Assembly (NCBI GenBank): GCA_003214355.1
Contig: QCLS01000001.1
Span: 221,039-285,038 of the forward strand
From: Prochlorococcus sp. AG-418-C09
GTDB taxonomy: Bacteria > Cyanobacteriota > Cyanobacteriia > PCC-6307 > Cyanobiaceae
Reading direction: 5' to 3'
DNA: 64,000 bases
Position 1 is the stretch's first letter; every line of letters begins with the position of its first letter. A program made the translations under genes and the position numbers. The notes beneath the pieces were generated by a model that was not told the DNA's origin, made no database searches, and saw only the letters and a program-made list of their open reading frames with translations. Positions 3,937 through 62,184 of this stretch are shown here, piece after piece.

Positions 3937-4896
3937 ATGTTTGATATAAATCGTAAAATATCTATTGTTATTCCTGTCTATAACGAAAGTGAAAGTATTA
4001 GGTTTTTAATAGAGGAAATAATTGGAGTTATGCATTCCAATAATTATCTTTTTGAAGTAATTGTTGTTAATGATGGTTCTAATGACTTAACATTTCAGAC
4101 ATTAGAGGATTTATCTTTAGAAATTGATGAATTATTAGCAATACATCTTCGAAAGAACTATGGCCAAACAGCTGCTATGTCAGCAGGATTTGACAATACA
4201 TCTGGCGAAATCATCATCTGTTTAGATGGAGACTTACAAAATGATCCAAGAGATATACCAAAGTTAATATCAAATATAAATGAAGGCTTTGATTTGATAT
4301 GCGGTTGGAGGTATGAAAGAAAAGATAAATTAATCAATAGAAAAATACCTTCAAAAATAGCAAATCAATTAATTGGTTTAGTAACGGGGATAAAATTACA
4401 TGATTATGGATGTTCTCTTAAAGCCTTTAAAAAAGAAATTATTGATGACATAAAACTATATGGAGAACTTCACAGATTCCTCCCTGTTCTTGCAAATATT
4501 GAAGGCGCAAAAATTAAAGAGATTAAAGTTAATCATAGAAGTAGAAAGTACGGCTCAAGCAAATATGGAATAGATAGAACGTTTCGTGTATTAATGGATT
4601 TGCTAACCGTTTGGTTCATGAATAAATTCCTGACTAGGCCAATGTATGTTTTCGGATTTATTGGGATTGTAAGTATTTTAAGTAGTTTCTTAATTAGCTC
4701 ATACTTAATTGTCATAAAATTTCTAGGTGAAGATATTGGTGCCAGACCATTATTAATTTTTGCTTTAATACTGGGAATTGCAGGGGTTCAATTATTTAGT
4801 TTTGGTTTATTAGGTGAACTATTAATGAGAACATATCATGAAAGCCAAAATAGACCAATATATAGAATAAGAAAAGTTAGTCAGAGTAAAAAATAG
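3937..4896 (+). CDS. GT2 glycosyltransferase (ArnC/DPM1-like polyprenol-phosphate glycosyltransferase)
   Basis: IVIPVYNE, VNDGS, RKNYGQTAA, DGDLQNDP, DYGCSLKA motifs; two C-terminal TM helices. Confidence 0.93.
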   Translation: MFDINRKISIVIPVYNESESIRFLIEEIIGVMHSNNYLFEVIVVNDGSNDLTFQTLEDLSLEIDELLAIHLRKNYGQTAAMSAGFDNTSGEIIICLDGDLQNDPRDIPKLISNINEGFDLICGWRYERKDKLINRKIPSKIANQLIGLVTGIKLHDYGCSLKAFKKEIIDDIKLYGELHRFLPVLANIEGAKIKEIKVNHRSRKYGSSKYGIDRTFRVLMDLLTVWFMNKFLTRPMYVFGFIGIVSILSSFLISSYLIVIKFLGEDIGARPLLIFALILGIAGVQLFSFGLLGELLMRTYHESQNRPIYRIRKVSQSKK

Positions 4897-4919
4897 AAAT
4901 TACGACTTATAGAATTGAT

Positions 4920-5315
4920 TTATTTGAACTTACTTATTAGTTTTGCTGATATTTTTACAATATCGGAATCCATATCTTTTAAACCTATTTTCAAAAGTTT
5001 TAATGTAGATTTGTCGGATAATTCTGCTGCTATTTGTAAAGACCTTATTTTATCTTTTTTATTACCTTTGAAAAGAGTAAACATTTCTTTTCTTAAGTTA
5101 AGTTTGTTAAAAGATTGATCAATCTGAGAATGATTCTTATATTTGTTTTTACTGATTAGATTTATGCTTGAATTAGTTTTATCATGAACATTCTGAGATT
5201 CTATTAATAGATCATTTCTTGTATTTATAAATTTTCTAATTATTGATTTTCTTTTAAAAATCAATACAAAAATTAGAATTATGGCTATTAGAATTATGCT
5301 GAAAAAATTTAACAT
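4920..5315 (-). CDS. Conserved membrane-anchored protein with C-terminal HEAT-like helices
   Basis: N-terminal TM helix; C-terminal LKIGLKDMDSDIVKISA resembles a HEAT repeat. Confidence 0.7.
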   Translation of the reverse strand: MLNFFSIILIAIILIFVLIFKRKSIIRKFINTRNDLLIESQNVHDKTNSSINLISKNKYKNHSQIDQSFNKLNLRKEMFTLFKGNKKDKIRSLQIAAELSDKSTLKLLKIGLKDMDSDIVKISAKLISKFK

Positions 5316-57905: not shown

Positions 57906-57976
57906 GGCGGCATGGCCAAGCGGTAAGGCAGAGGATTGCAAATCCTTTATCCCCAGTTCGAATCTGGGTGCCGCCT
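57906..57976 (+). tRNA. tRNA-Cys(GCA)
   Basis: GGCGGCATGGCCAAGCGGTAAGGCAGAGGA-TT GCA AA-TCCTT...CCCAGTTCGAATCTGGGTGCCGCCT. Confidence 0.97.
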
Positions 57977-57977
57977 T
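57955..57977 (+). repeat. att core copy 1 (tRNA-Cys T-arm and acceptor 3' strand)
   Basis: AGTTCGAATCTGGGTGCCGCCTT, identical at 59183..59205. Confidence 0.95.
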
Positions 57978-58064
57978 CTTTATATTAGTGACAATATTCG
58001 CTGTAAACCGTTCCAAGAAAAGGAGTTTTGAGTAACGGTTCGAAGATTTCAAGGAGTTATTAAT

Positions 58065-58097
58065 GGTAGGAAAGTGGTAGGAAAGTGGTAGGAAAGT
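58065..58097 (+). repeat. Three perfect tandem copies of GGTAGGAAAGT
   Basis: Units at 58065, 58076 and 58087. Confidence 0.95.
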
Positions 58098-58389
58098 CAA
58101 GACAAAACTTTCTTTAACCCACACGAAACTATTATCGCAAAATAAAAACCAAGGAACAAATTATTAAATAACTTTAAATTAATTGCAATTCCGACTCGTT
58201 TAATTGAAAATCTTACTTTTATAAAAAGCACATTATTGAAAGGTAAAGCACGCATTTAGATAATTTAAATTAAATATCTCAACGACTTAGTGAATAATAA
58301 TATTTCTAGATCTTGCCCTTAATAACAATAGTTAAATTTCTTTGTTCTTTAGTACCTCTTTTATAAAATAAAAAGAATACCTACATAGT

Positions 58390-58830
58390 GAGAATTTACA
58401 GATTTTGCTTAAAGTTTTAATTATTTTTCTTTTATGTACCCCCTTTTTGTTCCTAATAAAAAAGGAGTTCGATGGAGTATCTAAAAAGAGTAAAAAAATT
58501 ACTTATATATCAATCGGAATAACTTCTTTCATGTTTGTACTGTATAGATTGGCGCTGATTTATGAGAATTTACAGATACTGTTTAATATTTTATTAAGTG
58601 TTCTTTTATTTAGCGCATGTTTCTTCTTATTAAAAAAAGTTTTCGATGGATTATCTAAAAAGAATAAAAAAATAACTTATATATCAATCGGAATAATTTC
58701 TTACATGTTTGTACTGTATAGATTGGCGCTGATTTATGAAAATTTACAGATGTTGTTTACATTATTTTTAGTAATTCTTGTAGTTAGCGCATTTTTCTTC
58801 TTATTAAGAAAAGTTCTGGATGAATTTTCT
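58390..58830 (+). repeat. 174-bp (58-codon) tandem repeat, about 2.5 units, inside the cargo gene
   Basis: GAGAATTTACAGAT at 58390 and 58564, GAAAATTTACAGAT at 58738; TTCGATGGA at 58468 and 58642. Confidence 0.93.
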
Positions 58831-59001
58831 AAATGTCCGCGATGCGGTACACCTAACAGTTCTGAACTTGTAGACCAACAATGGCATGGAACATTTGAAA
58901 TGGGTACACAACGTGAAACAAGAAATATTTATAAAAATACCTATAGATGTTCAAAGTGTGGACATCAGTATTGGAAAACAGAACGAAGTTGGTTTAACTA
59001 A
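58405..59001 (+). CDS. Cargo membrane protein with 58-aa tandem repeats and a C-terminal zinc ribbon
   Basis: Hydrophobic helices alternate with Lys-rich loops; CPRC...CSKC; TTG start; the only long ORF in the cassette. Confidence 0.7.
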   Translation: MLKVLIIFLLCTPFLFLIKKEFDGVSKKSKKITYISIGITSFMFVLYRLALIYENLQILFNILLSVLLFSACFFLLKKVFDGLSKKNKKITYISIGIISYMFVLYRLALIYENLQMLFTLFLVILVVSAFFFLLRKVLDEFSKCPRCGTPNSSELVDQQWHGTFEMGTQRETRNIYKNTYRCSKCGHQYWKTERSWFN

Positions 59002-59104
59002 AAAAATTATTTAATTAATCAAATAAATTGATTCTAAAAGTAATTTAATTTCCTACCTTAAAAATAAATAAATAGATTGAAAGTAAATATTCCACACTTT
59101 TAAT

Positions 59105-59126
59105 GGTAGGAAAGTGGTAGGAAAGT
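59105..59126 (+). repeat. Two perfect tandem copies of GGTAGGAAAGT
   Basis: 59100..59126 is identical to 58060..58086 (27 bp). Confidence 0.95.
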
Positions 59127-59182
59127 TTAGATTTTGATCTCAAAAACTGCAGTTATAGATTGATTTTTAGAATACAAAACCT

Positions 59183-59205
59183 AGTTCGAATCTGGGTGCC
59201 GCCTT
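59183..59205 (+). repeat. att core copy 2 (duplicated tRNA-Cys 3' fragment)
   Basis: Exact 23-bp match to 57955..57977; 25/26 when extended to 59180. Confidence 0.95.
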
Positions 59206-59297
59206 TTTCAAATTAGTAAATAATTTCGCTGTAAAGCGTTCCAAAAAAAGGATTTTATTATAGCGATTCTTAATACTCAAGATGTTCAGTAATGGGC

Positions 59298-59331
59298 GGT
59301 AGGTTATCGGTAAGTTGACTGATAAGTTACC
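59298..59331 (+). repeat. Variant three-unit array (GGTAGGTTATC, GGTAAGTTGAC, GATAAGTTACC)
   Basis: About 11-bp period, shared G-R-T-A-R-G-T-T core; at nearly the same distance from att copy 2 as the first array is from att copy 1. Confidence 0.6.
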
Positions 59332-59469
59332 AGATTTTTTTATATTATTTCATCATCTCACTAATTGTAAAAACAGGAAAGAAGTAACTGTTTTCAAGTT
59401 AATTTCAACATATAAATAATAATATTGATCAAAATATGATTATTTTCAAGAAAATAAATAAAAATTATT

Positions 59470-59778
59470 ATGAATATTAATGCCTTCTTTAAGCTTTCTT
59501 TAATTTGATTCGCGGGTCTGAAATGAGTCGCTTGTGGAGGTAAACTTAAAGTGACCTCTTGTGAGGGATACGAATTATACGAAAGTCCAGTTAGTTAAAT
59601 AATTGATTAAGAATCAGAAATAGTAACAGTTAATTTTTTTGGAGATGATTTTTCATATGAAATAGATGGTAGGGAAACTTCTATAGACGGTTCAAACCTA
59701 AAAGTACAGCGTGATTTAGTGCCTCTTAATAATTGTCCTAATGAATTACCTGATGCTATTTTGCATTTAATTCCATAA
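59470..59778 (+). pseudogene. Possible decayed ORF (103 codons, four in-frame stops)
   Basis: ATG 59470 to TAA 59778 in one frame with TGA, TGA, TAA, TAA. The last 55 codons are open and protein-like (ESEIVTVNFFGDDFSYEIDGRETSIDG...). Confidence 0.3.
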
Positions 59779-59837
59779 AATTAAATTGATTTAATGAAAT
59801 TCTTCTTTTAATATAAAAAAAAATAACCTAATAATTT

Positions 59838-61385
59838 TTGCATAAAAAGTTATCTAATATATTTAGAATAGTAATTTTTCTTCCTCTTTTTAGCTATTTG
59901 GGAGAAAGAAGCTTTATTGCTTATGACGAAGGATTTTATATACTCCAGGCAAAATGGATTTTAGCGAAAGGCAATTGGATAGCGCCTATGTGGTTTGATA
60001 ATATTTCTCTTGATAGAACTATTGGAATTCAATTTCTAATTGCCTTATCACAAAAATTTCTTGGGAGTAGCGATTTTGTAATTTATATACCGACAACAAT
60101 TTGTGCAATATATATGGCTTATTTAACCTATCAAATCCATAAAGAACTGATAGGTGAGTCCTATGCATTAATTTCGCCTCTAATCTTATCAACAACCCTT
60201 TTGTGGATAAATCATGCGAATATGGCAACTCAAGACATTGTTTTTTCAACTATTGTCACTTTAGGGATTTATTCAACGATTAAGGCAAGTAAGTCTTCTG
60301 AAAATATTTTTTTAATATTTTCAGGCATATGGATAGGATTAGCAATAATGTTCAAAACTTTTTTAACGATCATTCCAATATTAGGAATATTACCTTTTTT
60401 AATTTACAAAAAAATCGCCCAAAAGAGATCCTTTTTGTTGGGTTTATTCATTGGTTTAATACCATTTCTGGTATGGAGTTTTCTGATCATAAAAAATTAT
60501 GGTTATTCTACTTATGATGATTTATTTTCAAAATTATTATCTTTATCAAAAAATAATACCTTTACTAATCCTTTTTATTATTATTTGTGGAATATTCCAA
60601 TTAATACATTTCCATGGTCATTGTTTTTATTGATGGGCTTAGCTGAATCTTCAAAACTTAGGAATCAAACATCAAAGTATTTCTTATTTATTTATCCACT
60701 AATAGTAATTGGTTTGTTAAGTATTTTTTCTACTAAGACCCAATATTATCCATTGCAAATTACTGCAATATTTTCTGTGAATTGCTATCTAGGCATTTCA
60801 TTAATAATCAAGCACAAAAGTAGTTTGATCAATATTGTAAGATTTATTAATTTTATTTTTGTTCCAATTACTTTATTAACATTATTAATATTAGTGAATT
60901 TCAACTATTTACCTATTGATATTGAATTAAGCGAAAAACAATACATAACTATTGGAGTATTATTATTCTCTATTTGTTGGTTATCTTACAATTTTTTAAA
61001 AACAAATAAAGCAAAACTACTATGCATCATATTAGGTCCATATTTTTTATTTTCTACAGTCTTACAATCAGGATTAATTACTGATAGATCAAAGGATCTA
61101 AGAATAGCTACTGAAGATATCATAAGATCAGAAAAACTTAATAATATCGCAATCCATACAGTAATCACAGACATTGATAATGAATTAGCACAGTCAAAAA
61201 TTATTAAAATTCTTGCCCTCATGCCTAGATTAGGCGACGGAATTTCATCATTAAATGATTTAGATCTGAAAGAATATGCATGGACAACTATAAGCAAAGA
61301 AGAAATTATAGATGAAAATCAGCTGAAAATTATAAACCAATCAAAGACTTTTTCTCCATGGAATTTAGTTAAGAAGGAAAGATGA
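59838..61385 (+). CDS. ArnT/PMT-family (GT-C, GT39-like) glycosyltransferase
   Basis: AYDEGFY, WIAPM, ATQD, GLAIMFK, PFYYYLW, KTQYY; multiple TM helices; TTG start uncertain. Confidence 0.9.
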   Translation: MHKKLSNIFRIVIFLPLFSYLGERSFIAYDEGFYILQAKWILAKGNWIAPMWFDNISLDRTIGIQFLIALSQKFLGSSDFVIYIPTTICAIYMAYLTYQIHKELIGESYALISPLILSTTLLWINHANMATQDIVFSTIVTLGIYSTIKASKSSENIFLIFSGIWIGLAIMFKTFLTIIPILGILPFLIYKKIAQKRSFLLGLFIGLIPFLVWSFLIIKNYGYSTYDDLFSKLLSLSKNNTFTNPFYYYLWNIPINTFPWSLFLLMGLAESSKLRNQTSKYFLFIYPLIVIGLLSIFSTKTQYYPLQITAIFSVNCYLGISLIIKHKSSLINIVRFINFIFVPITLLTLLILVNFNYLPIDIELSEKQYITIGVLLFSICWLSYNFLKTNKAKLLCIILGPYFLFSTVLQSGLITDRSKDLRIATEDIIRSEKLNNIAIHTVITDIDNELAQSKIIKILALMPRLGDGISSLNDLDLKEYAWTTISKEEIIDENQLKIINQSKTFSPWNLVKKER

Positions 61386-61391
61386 TTATTT

Positions 61392-61553
61392 CTAATATTC
61401 ATTATCTGCTACACAAATACCCATACATCTAACACCATTTGATGCAGTTCGTTTACAATGGATACAAAGTATTCGATCTTTTTTATTTTGCAGTAAATTT
61501 ATCTTTTCTTTTTCATATTGATCTAAATCAAGATTATTATCACAGATTTCCAT
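61392..61553 (-). CDS. Small Cys-rich hypothetical protein (53 aa); start trimmed to ATG 61553
   Basis: MEICDN...CIHC...CMGICVADNEY; the start overlaps the stop of the upstream gene by 14 nt. Confidence 0.7.
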   Translation of the reverse strand: MEICDNNLDLDQYEKEKINLLQNKKDRILCIHCKRTASNGVRCMGICVADNEY

Positions 61554-62184
61554 TATTTTGATGACTTTCTGAACTGATATTAACAACTAATGATGTATTT
61601 GTGTTTGATGAAGGTATATCCATTATTTTAACTGTTTCTTGAGTTTTCTCTCTTACTATATTATCTTCCTCTGTTTCTTCTACAGAGCATGCTTCTAATG
61701 CCTCTCTTAATAATGAATCAAATGTTGCCCCTGGTAATCTATGCCTTGCTACCTCTAGAAAAGTTCTTGGCAATGATTCAGAGGCTGCATCTCGTAATGC
61801 AGGATTATTTCTTCTATGTTCTTGTTCTTCTTCAATTGACTTAATAAATCTTAAAGTCACATCGCGCTTTGTTGAAGCTTTTATTAACGTATCACTTTCC
61901 TGATTATCATTATTTGAATCATTTTCAAGATCAAATAATCTTTTCTCAAGACTACTTAAAACCTCATTGGCCTCTTTACTTATATGAGCTAGTTGGCCAT
62001 CAGATAAATTAGGCAGATCTGCAACAAATACTTTGCCATGATCTCTTAAAGTTAAGAAAGTCGGCCTTGGACCTTGATTCTGACGACTATTAAAATCTGA
62101 AGCGTTCGAAGATGGTCTTCTAGGAGGAGTAGGTCCAGCTGAGCTGCGTCTACGAGTAATTCTTTGATTATTTTCAGAAGGCAT
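61540..62184 (-). CDS. Conserved picocyanobacterial hypothetical protein
   Basis: RITRRRSSAGPTPP, PRPTFLTLRDHGKVFVADLP, FLEVARHRLPGATFDSLL; function not assignable from motifs. Confidence 0.85.
   Translation of the reverse strand: MPSENNQRITRRRSSAGPTPPRRPSSNASDFNSRQNQGPRPTFLTLRDHGKVFVADLPNLSDGQLAHISKEANEVLSSLEKRLFDLENDSNNDNQESDTLIKASTKRDVTLRFIKSIEEEQEHRRNNPALRDAASESLPRTFLEVARHRLPGATFDSLLREALEACSVEETEEDNIVREKTQETVKIMDIPSSNTNTSLVVNISSESHQNNGNL

What the first reader, a model, noticed from the sequence alone, without database searches (positions are those of the whole stretch)
57955..59205. Integrase-less single-gene mini-cassette integrated at tRNA-Cys with apparently complete att architecture
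Seen: the last 23 bp of tRNA-Cys (T-loop to discriminator, plus one base) recur exactly 1,228 bp later. The second copy still forms the T stem-loop (CCTAG-TTCGAAT-CTGGG). Between the copies are identical 11-bp tandem arrays near both ends and one cargo gene, but no integrase, excisionase or replication gene. Established: tyrosine integrases commonly recombine within the symmetric T-loop of tRNA genes and duplicate the tRNA 3' end, and Prochlorococcus tycheposons integrate at tRNAs. Inference: this is a minimal satellite cassette moved in trans by an integrase encoded elsewhere, i.e. a MITE- or integron-cassette-like unit of the tRNA-targeting system. It is far smaller than typical described islands. 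The alternative is a deletion remnant that kept both ends.
Basis: partly seen in the sequence, partly recalled or inferred. Interest (0 to 1): 0.8.

Follow-up and report, generated by a model that had tools for sequence, protein, structure and literature searches.

The report
Integrase-less gene cassette at tRNA-Cys
A 1.2-kb, one-gene cassette sits at the end of the cysteine-tRNA gene of a Prochlorococcus-type marine cyanobacterium, carrying complete docking sites but no enzyme of its own; it belongs to a widespread family of such mini-cassettes that share their docking sites with rare larger elements, which carry an integrase no standard database recognises.

Summary
The last 23 bp of tRNA-Cys recur exactly 1,228 bp downstream, with GGTAGGAAAGT arrays inside both ends, one cargo gene and no recombinase.

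The reading is largely right.
- About 30 of 222 same-genus genomes that have the site carry 0.2-2.3 kb cassettes of the same build. At least 11 have an empty site.
- Each cassette has its own 11-mer "code", matched between its two ends.
- Rare 6-9.5 kb elements at the same tRNA use the same codes. They also carry a 460-480 aa protein that matches nothing in Pfam, PHROGs, NCBIfam or PDB sequences but folds as a tyrosine recombinase.
- Integrases whose arms carry the window's code (GGTAGGAAAGT) were found in ocean metagenome contigs, not in this genome.
- The cassette keeps about six decayed codons of the integrase start (ATG to ATT). Its right arm is 92-95% identical to cassettes in hosts whose flanking gene is about 71% identical, one with unrelated cargo.

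It is therefore a non-autonomous, deletion-derived cassette lineage of the cis-mobilizable (CIME) kind, probably moved by a helper. A second, truncated element carrying a glycosyltransferase follows it.

Earlier runs of this scan reported similar integrase-less cassette arrays at tRNA and tmRNA genes in other genomes.

The parts
57906..57976 (+). tRNA-Cys(GCA), intact. Its 3' end is the integration target.
   Evidence: ARAGORN; Rfam RF00005, 65.5 bits
57955..57977 (+). attL core: 23 bp, from the T-loop to the discriminator plus one base
   Evidence: Exact copy of 59183-59205
57978..58064 (+). Core-proximal part of the left (P') arm, about 87 bp. It has a hairpin (AACCGTT/AACGGTT) where the native flank also has one.
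   Evidence: Alignment of 23 post-tRNA sequences; folds (weak, z = -0.7). Only 71% identical to the sister cassette in G058.
58065..58097 (+). Three tandem GGTAGGAAAGT units: putative arm-type integrase sites of the P' arm
   Evidence: The array starts 86-98 bp after the core in most of the 29 elements measured.
58098..58230 (+). Left-hand 'chassis' sequence shared at about 98% with the G058 cassette
   Evidence: Pairwise alignment
58405..59001 (+). Cargo gene: a membrane protein of 58-aa repeats (174-nt tandem repeat, 58389-58833, 2.6 copies) with a C-terminal CxxC...CxxC zinc ribbon. Function unknown.
   Evidence: Only 5 related clusters among 5.8 billion proteins. Homologues sit in cassettes with the same arms in G058 and L084.
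59029..59049 (-). Decayed remnant of the first ~6 codons of the integrase gene (ATG changed to ATT)
   Evidence: Alignment with integrase-bearing contigs L072, L074, L065 and L071, where CAT (ATG on the minus strand) abuts the inverted 11-mer
59047..59057 (-). Inverted 11-mer (GGTAGGAAATT). In autonomous elements this copy overlaps the integrase ribosome-binding site and start codon.
59105..59126 (+). Two tandem GGTAGGAAAGT units: putative arm-type sites of the right (P) arm
   Evidence: The array ends 56-62 bp before the core in most of the 29 elements measured.
59183..59205 (+). attR core of cassette 1, which is also the attL core of element 2
59206..59340 (+). Left arm of a second, older element with a different, decayed code (GGGCGGTAGGT TATCGGTAAGT at 59294-59315; GGGCGGTAAGT type)
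   Evidence: It closely resembles the left arms in G008, the MED4-sized genome G015, G068, G074 and G122.
59838..61385 (+). Cargo of element 2: a PMT_2 / ArnT-like membrane glycosyltransferase (515 aa), single copy in this genome
   Evidence: Pfam PF13231, 1.8e-18; NCBIfam PRK13279; single copy. It lies between the att site and the native orf214, which in 18 relatives follows the tRNA within a few hundred bp.
61391..61540 (.). Native flank resumes here (conserved block CATTATCTGCTACACA...ATCTAACACCATTTGATGCAGT). The right arm and core of element 2 are missing.
   Evidence: One search compared with the flanks in L024, L037 and L050

Best explanation
Bases 57977-59205 are a non-autonomous integrative cassette, a cis-mobilizable (CIME) type element. 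It was inserted by site-specific recombination into the 3' end of tRNA-Cys.

Its two ends together make a lambda-like attP: inverted 11-mer, about 47 bp, two direct 11-mers, about 59 bp, a 23-bp core, about 88 bp, then three direct 11-mers.

The 11-mers are most likely arm-type sites for the N-terminal domain of a divergent 460-480 aa tyrosine integrase. That integrase is carried only by rare 6-9.5 kb sister elements at the same tRNA. The 11-mer sequence is a lineage-specific code that pairs cassettes with helpers.

The cassette lineage arose by deletion of the integrase and other genes; a decayed start codon remains. It then spread among species as a conserved chassis holding different single-gene cargo. 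A helper element of the same code could move it in two ways: by supplying integrase in trans, or by integrating next to it and excising with it (accretion and cis-mobilisation).

In this genome no helper is present, so the cassette is currently stranded. It sits in front of a second, truncated element that brought a glycosyltransferase.

Shown: the anatomy, the family, the presence/absence polymorphism, the shared ends with and without integrase, and the recombinase fold. Inferred: 11-mer binding by the integrase, mobilisation in trans or in cis, and the vehicle between cells.
For: (1) Exact 23-bp core duplication, with an intact tRNA.

(2) Empty sites and variable occupancy. Of 20 relatives, 11 have the native flank straight after the tRNA. 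In G006, G003, G058 and others, the second core is followed by that same native flank.

(3) Genus scan. Of 285 genomes, 222 have the core and about 30 have 2-3 copies, spaced 190 bp to 9.5 kb.

(4) Constant architecture in 29 elements. Left and right 11-mers of one element differ by 1.2 positions on average, against 3.6 when partners are shuffled (0 of 10,000 shuffles reach the observed value).

(5) Integrase-bearing elements at tRNA-Cys in G122, G189, G271 and Synechococcus UW179B, and next to a tRNA-Cys core copy in G091 (its tRNA is off the contig), each with its own 11-mer. Integrases with at least 57% identity share GGTAGGAAA-type arms.

(6) Metagenome contigs carry a 467-468 aa integrase abutting GGTAGGAAAGT x2 plus the Cys core.

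(7) The integrase model (pLDDT 85.5) matches XerH, Tn1549 Int, Cre and full-length lambda Int. The RHTxFR and GHTS...Y motifs are invariant in 32 homologues.

(8) The integrase ATG abuts the inverted 11-mer in autonomous elements. The window cassette, G058, L067 and L084 share the decayed version.

(9) The right arm is 92-95% identical among the window cassette, G058, L067 and L084, while the host flank is 71% identical (window vs G058).

(10) L077 and L078 are circular permutations of a 6,025-bp integrase element, with the P-core-P' junction inside.
Against: No cognate integrase is in the assembly, so activity in this cell is unlikely.

Binding of the integrase to the 11-mers is inferred from position and covariation only. 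The element also carries a serine resolvase and unknown genes that covary with the 11-mers just as well.

Outside the 11-mers, the arms of the integrase-bearing contigs are only about 47-52% identical (ungapped) to the mini-cassette arm. The direct parent has therefore not been found.

The circularly permuted contigs could be tandem copies rather than circles.

Genomes compared are one per species and related to each other, so counts are not independent.
Confidence: 0.78

Rival explanations
1. Dead remnant. The cassette is an in-situ deletion product of a once complete element and has never moved as a small unit. Similar cassettes elsewhere arose by independent decay.
For: A decayed integrase start is retained. 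No integrase is present in the genome. Clearly decayed examples exist: the MIT9312-sized genome G057 has single, degenerate 11-mers, and element 2 of the window has lost its right end.
Against: The same decayed chassis (ATG to ATT, right arm 92-95% identical) occurs in hosts whose flanking gene is 71% identical, and in one case (L067) with unrelated cargo. Independent decay would not give the same breakpoints. Non-coding arms are better conserved than the cargo gene itself.
Confidence: 0.1
2. Exchange is by homologous recombination. Cassettes are swapped between cells by ordinary recombination in the conserved tRNA and flank, or in the 11-mer arrays. The att-like ends are only relics.
For: Mosaic structure. 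Identity between the window cassette and G058 jumps from 71% to about 98% exactly at the 11-mer array. 'Empty' 190-197 bp cassettes have the left array fused to the right array (G096; second unit of G043). L084 has a right-arm array fused directly to cargo.
Against: Recombination in the flanks does not explain why every unit is bounded by an exact tRNA-end copy at fixed distances from the arrays, nor the tandem stacks. It probably acts in addition to site-specific integration, not instead of it.
Confidence: 0.08
3. The 11-mers are iterons of a replication origin, or sites for the serine resolvase or another element protein, rather than integrase arm sites.
For: Tandem 11-bp repeats (one helical turn) are typical of iterons. 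Autonomous elements carry a resolvase and unassigned proteins, some with an HxH-like motif seen by eye and not tested. An unrelated low-GC contig (L062) has the same 11-mers without a Cys core.
Against: The arrays sit on both sides of the core at fixed distances (86-98 and 56-62 bp in most of 29 elements). One copy overlaps the integrase start. The integrase model has a small beta-rich N-terminal domain and aligns with full-length lambda Int. The layout mirrors the P1/P2 and P'1-3 sites of lambda attP (my knowledge).
Confidence: 0.08
4. The repeat comes from a local duplication or an assembly artefact of the tRNA 3' region.
For: None beyond the repeat itself.
Against: Only the 23-bp core is exact, and the inner sequence is unrelated to the tRNA. 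The same structure is found in more than 20 independent genomes and in metagenome contigs.
Confidence: 0.01

Closest known systems
CIMEs (cis-mobilizable elements) of the ICESt1/ICESt3 type in streptococci
   Same: These are defined as elements that have lost their integration and transfer genes but kept attL and attR. They arise by decay of an autonomous element and lie in tandem with related elements at the 3' end of a target gene (PMC5704250). All of this is seen here.
   Different: The units here are far smaller (0.2-2.3 kb, usually one gene). They form a conserved chassis lineage with exchanged cargo and outnumber their helpers about 8 to 1. The helpers are not conjugative. Accretion and mobilisation have not been demonstrated here.
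Tycheposons and their remnants in Prochlorococcus genomic islands (Hackl et al., bioRxiv 10.1101/2020.12.28.424599)
   Same: Same host group, integration at tRNA 3' ends, partial tRNA copies between stacked elements, an inward-facing tyrosine integrase at one end, a small serine recombinase as a hallmark gene, and degenerate remnants.
   Different: tRNA-Cys is not among the seven listed sites, and Cys does not appear in the text or in the supplements held. That screen started from integrases, so integrase-less minis were outside it. No replication module was recognised in the tRNA-Cys elements. Whether their integrase lies in the tycheposon clade could not be tested.
Phage lambda attP/Int (arm-type and core-type sites)
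   Same: A core flanked by arms that carry tandem short repeats, two on one side and three on the other. The integrase has an extra N-terminal domain, and the model aligns with full-length lambda Int.
   Different: No sequence similarity. No excisionase was identified. An additional inverted site lies over the integrase start. Binding is untested.
Integron gene cassettes
   Same: Promoter-poor, mostly single-gene units stacked at one site and moved by a tyrosine recombinase encoded outside the cassette.
   Different: There is no attC hairpin site, and no adjacent intI, attI or Pc platform. Each unit carries a full double-stranded attP-like site of about 330 bp and duplicates a tRNA end.
MITEs (miniature inverted-repeat transposable elements)
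   Same: Deletion-derived non-autonomous copies that outnumber the autonomous parent and depend on its enzyme.
   Different: These units are site-specific, not transposing. They have no terminal inverted repeats or target-site duplication, and they carry a gene.

Membership tests
CIME (cis-mobilizable element) | Retains both attL and attR | tested here: met
   Exact 23-bp cores at both ends, each with an arm carrying 11-mer arrays
CIME (cis-mobilizable element) | Lacks integration and transfer genes | tested here: met
   One ORF with no recombinase domain. No homologue of the family's integrase in the cassette or the genome.
CIME (cis-mobilizable element) | Derived from an autonomous element by deletion | tested here: met
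   About six decayed integrase codons, with ATG changed to ATT, next to the inverted 11-mer. They align with intact integrase starts in L072, L074, L065 and L071.
CIME (cis-mobilizable element) | Mobilised when a related autonomous element integrates beside it and the composite excises | not testable with these tools
   Tandem stacks exist (the window; G043, G061, G108, G144, G152), but no excision data.
Tycheposon | Encodes a site-specific integrase, inward-facing at one end | tested here: not met
   The cassette has none. Sister elements in G122, G189 and G271 do have one, inward-facing at the right end.
Tycheposon | Shares the hallmark gene set (replication module, small serine recombinase and others) | tested here: inconclusive
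   Sister elements carry a small serine resolvase (PF00239), but no primase, helicase or polymerase was recognised. The cassette has none of these.
Tycheposon | Integrates at one of the seven island tRNA/tmRNA genes listed | tested here: not met
   The site is tRNA-Cys. The preprint lists Pro, Ser, Ala, Thr, Arg, Met and tmRNA.
Tycheposon | Integrase belongs to the tycheposon-specific tyrosine recombinase clade | not testable with these tools
   The authors' profiles and tree are not available here.
Tyrosine recombinase (for the helper protein) | Catalytic-domain fold of Cre, Xer and lambda Int | tested here: met
   AF2 model with pLDDT 85.5. The listed Foldseek matches (the best 50 of 83) are all tyrosine recombinases, with TM up to 0.66 on the target.
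Tyrosine recombinase (for the helper protein) | Conserved catalytic residues (R, K, H/x-x-R, H/W, Y) | tested here: met
   Invariant R287, R393-H394-T395, R398 and Y431, and a near-invariant G-H-T-S, in 32 homologues. Assignment to catalytic roles is by motif, not by structure superposition.
Tyrosine recombinase (for the helper protein) | Match to Pfam PF00589 or to a solved integrase by sequence | tested here: not met
   No hit in Pfam, PHROGs, NCBIfam, PADLOC or PDB sequences. All 120 listed homologous clusters (of 179 found) lack a precomputed Pfam hit, and the few that carry a source name are called hypothetical.
Integron cassette | attC recombination site (imperfect inverted repeats) and an intI/attI platform | tested here: not met
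   The ends are direct repeats of a tRNA end plus direct 11-mers. No integrase lies next to the array.

The most novel reading that the evidence does not exclude
Marine picocyanobacteria run a cassette-exchange system at tRNA-Cys. A population of single-gene, integrase-less cassettes persists and spreads as a conserved attP chassis. It is sorted into mobilisation groups by an 11-bp arm code read by the N-domain of rare helper integrases from a previously unannotated tyrosine recombinase family. Functionally this would be an integron-like gene pool, built from whole double-stranded att sites, that mostly trades cell-surface genes.
Probability: 0.35. Interest if true: 0.75.

Novelty: new variant of a known kind. 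Interest (0 to 1): 0.6.

Why it matters
How Prochlorococcus, which lacks plasmids, conjugation and known competence, shuffles its flexible genes is an open question. Tycheposons gave a first answer for large islands.

This locus shows a second, miniature tier. One-gene cassettes at a tRNA not listed for tycheposons are present in roughly one in seven species representatives. They outnumber their integrase-bearing helpers about eightfold, and they carry surface-related cargo: polysaccharide export proteins, TPR proteins, glycosyltransferase and membrane proteins.

The locus also exposes an abundant ocean integrase family (at least 179 clusters at 90% identity) that standard profile libraries miss. 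Integrase-based screens for mobile elements will therefore overlook both the helpers and the cassettes.

The matched 11-mer codes give a directly testable model of helper and cassette specificity.

Tried and rejected
- The fetch from genomes and the genome search closed later. As a result the native context of the glycosyltransferase in relatives, and the seven unexamined two-core genomes, were not inspected.
- Scan of viral contigs for the double 11-mer: 0 hits.
- tblastn of the integrase against 50,697 phage records: no match. A phage-borne helper is therefore not supported.
- Pfam, PHROGs, NCBIfam, PADLOC and PDB-sequence searches of the integrase: nothing. Only the fold search identified it.
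- Exact look-up of the cargo protein: not on record.
- The three PF00589 integrases of the genome (contigs C7, C10, C4) were considered as helpers and set aside. They are unrelated to the tRNA-Cys family by BLAST. ORFs of similar length (390-398 aa) are the PF00589 hits in four of five relatives checked, which suggests the C10 one is a housekeeping gene.
- Rfam: only the tRNA.
- Hairpin in the left arm as a tRNA terminator: present, but not better than shuffles for cassette 1, so left as a remark.
- Four of the 15 metagenome hits to the double 11-mer are unrelated high-GC DNA.
Full report
**Observation**

tRNA-Cys(GCA) lies at 57906-57976. Its last 22 bases plus one more (57955-57977) recur exactly at 59183-59205, 1,228 bp downstream. 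The 22-mer is found twice in the window, never in 100 shuffles, and nowhere else in the 1.6-Mb assembly.

GGTAGGAAAGT stands three times in tandem at 58065-58097 and twice at 59105-59126. A single inverted copy lies at 59047-59057.

The only credible gene between the cores is 58405-59001. It encodes a membrane protein built from 58-aa repeats, with a C-terminal zinc ribbon. It has no recombinase, excisionase or replication domain.

Two additions matter. First, the similarity after the second core runs on for 107-190 bp at 76-80%. Second, the inserted DNA does not end at 59205.

**The whole locus**

In 18 same-genus relatives the order is: lpxB-related gene, tRNA-Cys, a few hundred bp, a conserved 214-aa gene, purM.

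In the window, two units lie between the tRNA and that 214-aa gene (61540-62184):
- cassette 1 (57977-59205);
- a second unit that starts with another element-type left arm (59206-59340; decayed 11-mers GGGCGGTAGGT/TATCGGTAAGT). It carries a PMT_2/ArnT-like glycosyltransferase (59838-61385), which is single copy in this genome.

The conserved native block resumes at about 61391, directly after the glycosyltransferase stop codon (one search compared). Element 2 has therefore lost its right arm and core. The locus is a stack of one complete and one truncated element.

**The site is polymorphic**

After tRNA-Cys, 11 of 20 relatives have one conserved 'native' flank. Nine have element-type left arms.

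A scan of 285 genomes of the genus found the tRNA-end core in 222. About 30 of these have two or three copies. I read 24 of them.

Core-to-core distances are 190 bp to 2.3 kb in 21 integrase-less cases, and 7.1-9.5 kb in three. In many of them (G006, G003, G058, G074, G139, G163 and others) the last core is followed by the native flank. These are clean insertions.

The complete genomes in this genus have the exact lengths I remember for Prochlorococcus MED4, MIT9312 and MIT9515. Homologues of the integrase are named from Synechococcus and 'Cyanobacteria bacterium'. The host is therefore a high-light Prochlorococcus-type organism, by inference.

**Architecture**

Most units share the same build:
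- core;
- 86-98 bp;
- two or three direct 11-mers;
- cargo;
- often one inverted 11-mer;
- about 47 bp;
- two direct 11-mers;
- 56-62 bp;
- core.

The 11-mers differ between elements: GGTAGGAAAGT, GGGCGGTAAGT, GGTCGGCAAGT, GGACAGCAAGT, GGATGGTAAGT, GGACGGTCAGT and GGTAGGTGAGT. Within one element the two ends match: 1.2 mismatches on average against 3.6 for shuffled partners, with 0 of 10,000 shuffles reaching the observed value. Related genomes are not independent, so this number overstates the significance.

Joined head to tail, the ends form an attP of about 330 bp with repeats on both sides of the core. This is the layout of lambda attP with its arm-type sites (my knowledge).

**The helpers**

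G122, G189 and G271 carry 7.1-9.5 kb elements at tRNA-Cys. G091 carries one next to a tRNA-Cys core copy, with its tRNA off the contig. All have the same build.

At the right end of each sits an inward-facing 459-481 aa protein. Each also carries a small serine resolvase.

The 459-481 aa protein has no hit in Pfam, PHROGs, NCBIfam, PADLOC or PDB sequences. It does have invariant RHTxFR and GHTS...Y motifs. An AlphaFold model from 32 homologues (pLDDT 85.5) matches XerH, Tn1549 Int, Cre and full-length lambda Int. It is a divergent tyrosine recombinase with a small beta-rich N-terminal domain.

Each integrase lineage goes with its own 11-mer:

| Source | Identity to L072 integrase | 11-mer |
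|---|---|---|
| G122 | 37% | GGGCGGTAAGT |
| G189 | 39% | GGATGGTAAGT |
| G271 | 40% | GGACGGTAAGT |
| G091 | 32% | GGTAGGACAGT |
| Synechococcus UW179B (same locus) | 43% | GGTGTAGCGGA |
| P0004 and P0034 | 76% and 57% | GGTAGGAAA-type |

The family is common in ocean metagenomes, with at least 179 clusters. None of the 120 listed has a precomputed Pfam hit, and the few that carry a source name are called hypothetical. It is absent from the phage collection.

**The window's own code**

A metagenome scan for GGTAGGAAAGTGGTAGGAAAGT gave 15 contigs. Ten are picocyanobacterial tRNA-Cys contexts.
- L071, L072, L074 and L065 have a 467-468 aa integrase (37% identical to that of G122). It directly abuts the right arm with exactly this double 11-mer and, except in L071, which ends inside the arm, the Cys core.
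- L067 is a mini-cassette with the same arms and other cargo; L084 (found through a cargo homologue) has the same arms and homologous cargo; L066 holds a further cassette of another code behind an arm with this double 11-mer.

The assembly of the window's genome (95.5% complete) has no homologue of this integrase (best tblastn E about 7).

**Origin and spread**

In the autonomous contigs the integrase ATG lies directly against the inverted 11-mer. GGTAGGAAATG reads as a ribosome-binding site plus start codon.

The window cassette, G058, L067 and L084 all keep the same decayed version (ATT AAA TTA CTT TTA GAA...). About 70 bp of shared sequence continues up to the cargo boundary.

| Comparison | Identity |
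|---|---|
| Right arm (160 nt), window vs G058 | 95% |
| Right arm (160 nt), window vs L067 | 92% |
| Right arm (160 nt), window vs L084 | 92% |
| 130 bp inward of the left 11-mers, window vs G058 | about 98% |
| Host gene next to the tRNA, window vs G058 | 71% |
| Middle of the cargo gene, window vs G058 | highly diverged, with large gaps |

This fits one deletion-derived chassis that has moved between species and exchanged cargo. It does not fit independent decay in place.

Homologous recombination at the 11-mer arrays also shapes these units:
- Identity between the window cassette and G058 jumps from 71% to about 98% exactly at the array.
- 'Empty' 190-197 bp units have the left array fused to the right array.
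- L084 has a right-arm array fused to cargo.

**Excised form**

Contigs L077 and L078 carry an integrase 76% identical to that of L072, with arms GGTAGGAAAAC/T. They are circular permutations of one 6,025-bp unit. The P-core-P' junction is internal and neither contig has a chromosomal flank. This means a circle or a head-to-tail multimer. It concerns a helper relative, not the window cassette.

**Comparison with what is known**

The cassette meets the definition of a CIME: att sites kept, integration and transfer genes lost, derived by deletion (PMC5704250).

The helpers resemble tycheposons: an inward-facing tyrosine integrase at one end, a small serine recombinase, and a tRNA target. However, tRNA-Cys is not among the seven listed sites, Cys is not mentioned in the preprint or its held supplements, and no replication module was recognised.

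It is not an integron cassette (no attC, no intI platform). It is not a MITE.

Earlier runs of this scan reported similar integrase-less cassette stacks at tRNA and tmRNA genes in SAR11, CPR bacteria and others. The general phenomenon is therefore recurrent. I did not check those reports.

**Verdict**

The finding is real and the reading is supported. It is a known kind of element (a non-autonomous att-flanked derivative) in a new, miniature and unusually successful variant. It sits at an undescribed site and depends on an unannotated integrase family.

The main gap is the lack of any direct evidence of excision or of integrase binding to the 11-mers.

Noticed in passing
window 59206-61390: A second, truncated element sits behind the cassette. 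Its left arm has a decayed GGGCGGTAAGT-type code, and it carries an ArnT/PMT_2-like glycosyltransferase as cargo. That gene is single copy in this genome, whereas relatives have a 64-65% identical (DNA) homologue 80-200 kb away from tRNA-Cys.
   Followed up: partly
window 58389-58833: A 174-nt tandem repeat (2.6 copies, 84% matches) lies inside the cargo gene and encodes 58-aa transmembrane repeats. The sister gene in G058 lacks the expansion and has an extra N-terminal zinc ribbon instead.
   Followed up: partly
window 61391-61470: A conserved non-coding block (CATTATCTGCTACACA...ATCTAACACCATTTGATGCAGT) lies just beyond the 3' end of the 214-aa gene and is present in several relatives. It has no Rfam match.
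   Followed up: no
L058 (G023), L059 (G098), L061 (G167): Integrases 29-35% identical to the tRNA-Cys family lie on stretches that hold a tRNA-Phe(GAA) gene. This suggests a second target tRNA that is also not in the tycheposon list.
   Followed up: no
own genome contig C7, about 74181-75700 (outside the window): A PF00589 integrase (423-aa ORF) lies directly downstream of tRNA-Ser(CGA). It is a candidate integrative element of another family.
   Followed up: no
L045 (G096) and L036 1495-1703 (G043): 'Empty' cassettes of 190-197 bp consist only of a left arm fused to a right arm at the 11-mer array, between two tRNA-end cores.
   Followed up: partly
L062 (metagenome contig, 30% GC): Arrays of GGTAGGAAAGT and GGTAGACG-type repeats occur in both orientations, with no tRNA-Cys core nearby. 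The same 11-mer is used in some other context.
   Followed up: no
L055 2664-3488, L056 (reverse complement) 4543-5244, L057 (reverse complement) 2018-2713: Proteins of 231-274 aa in the autonomous elements contain HxH-hydrophobic motifs (HLHILLE, SHFLVYN, THLVLTLY) that recall HUH replication initiators. This was seen by eye only, and Pfam gives no hit.
   Followed up: no
L037 (G057, 1,709,204-bp genome) and L014 (G015, 1,657,990-bp genome): Genomes with the sizes of MIT9312 and MED4 carry, respectively, a decayed 942-bp cassette and a left-arm remnant only at tRNA-Cys. The site is thus occupied even in the classic reference strains.
   Followed up: partly
cassettes in G073, G087, G163 and G003 (L042, L044, L054, L027): Four cassettes with GGACAGCAAGT-type arms carry homologous 416-577 aa Wza-like proteins. 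Poly_export and SLBB domains were confirmed by Pfam for the G073 member. Other cargo includes TPR proteins, an esterase-like hydrolase and a T5orf172/MUG113-domain protein.
   Followed up: partly
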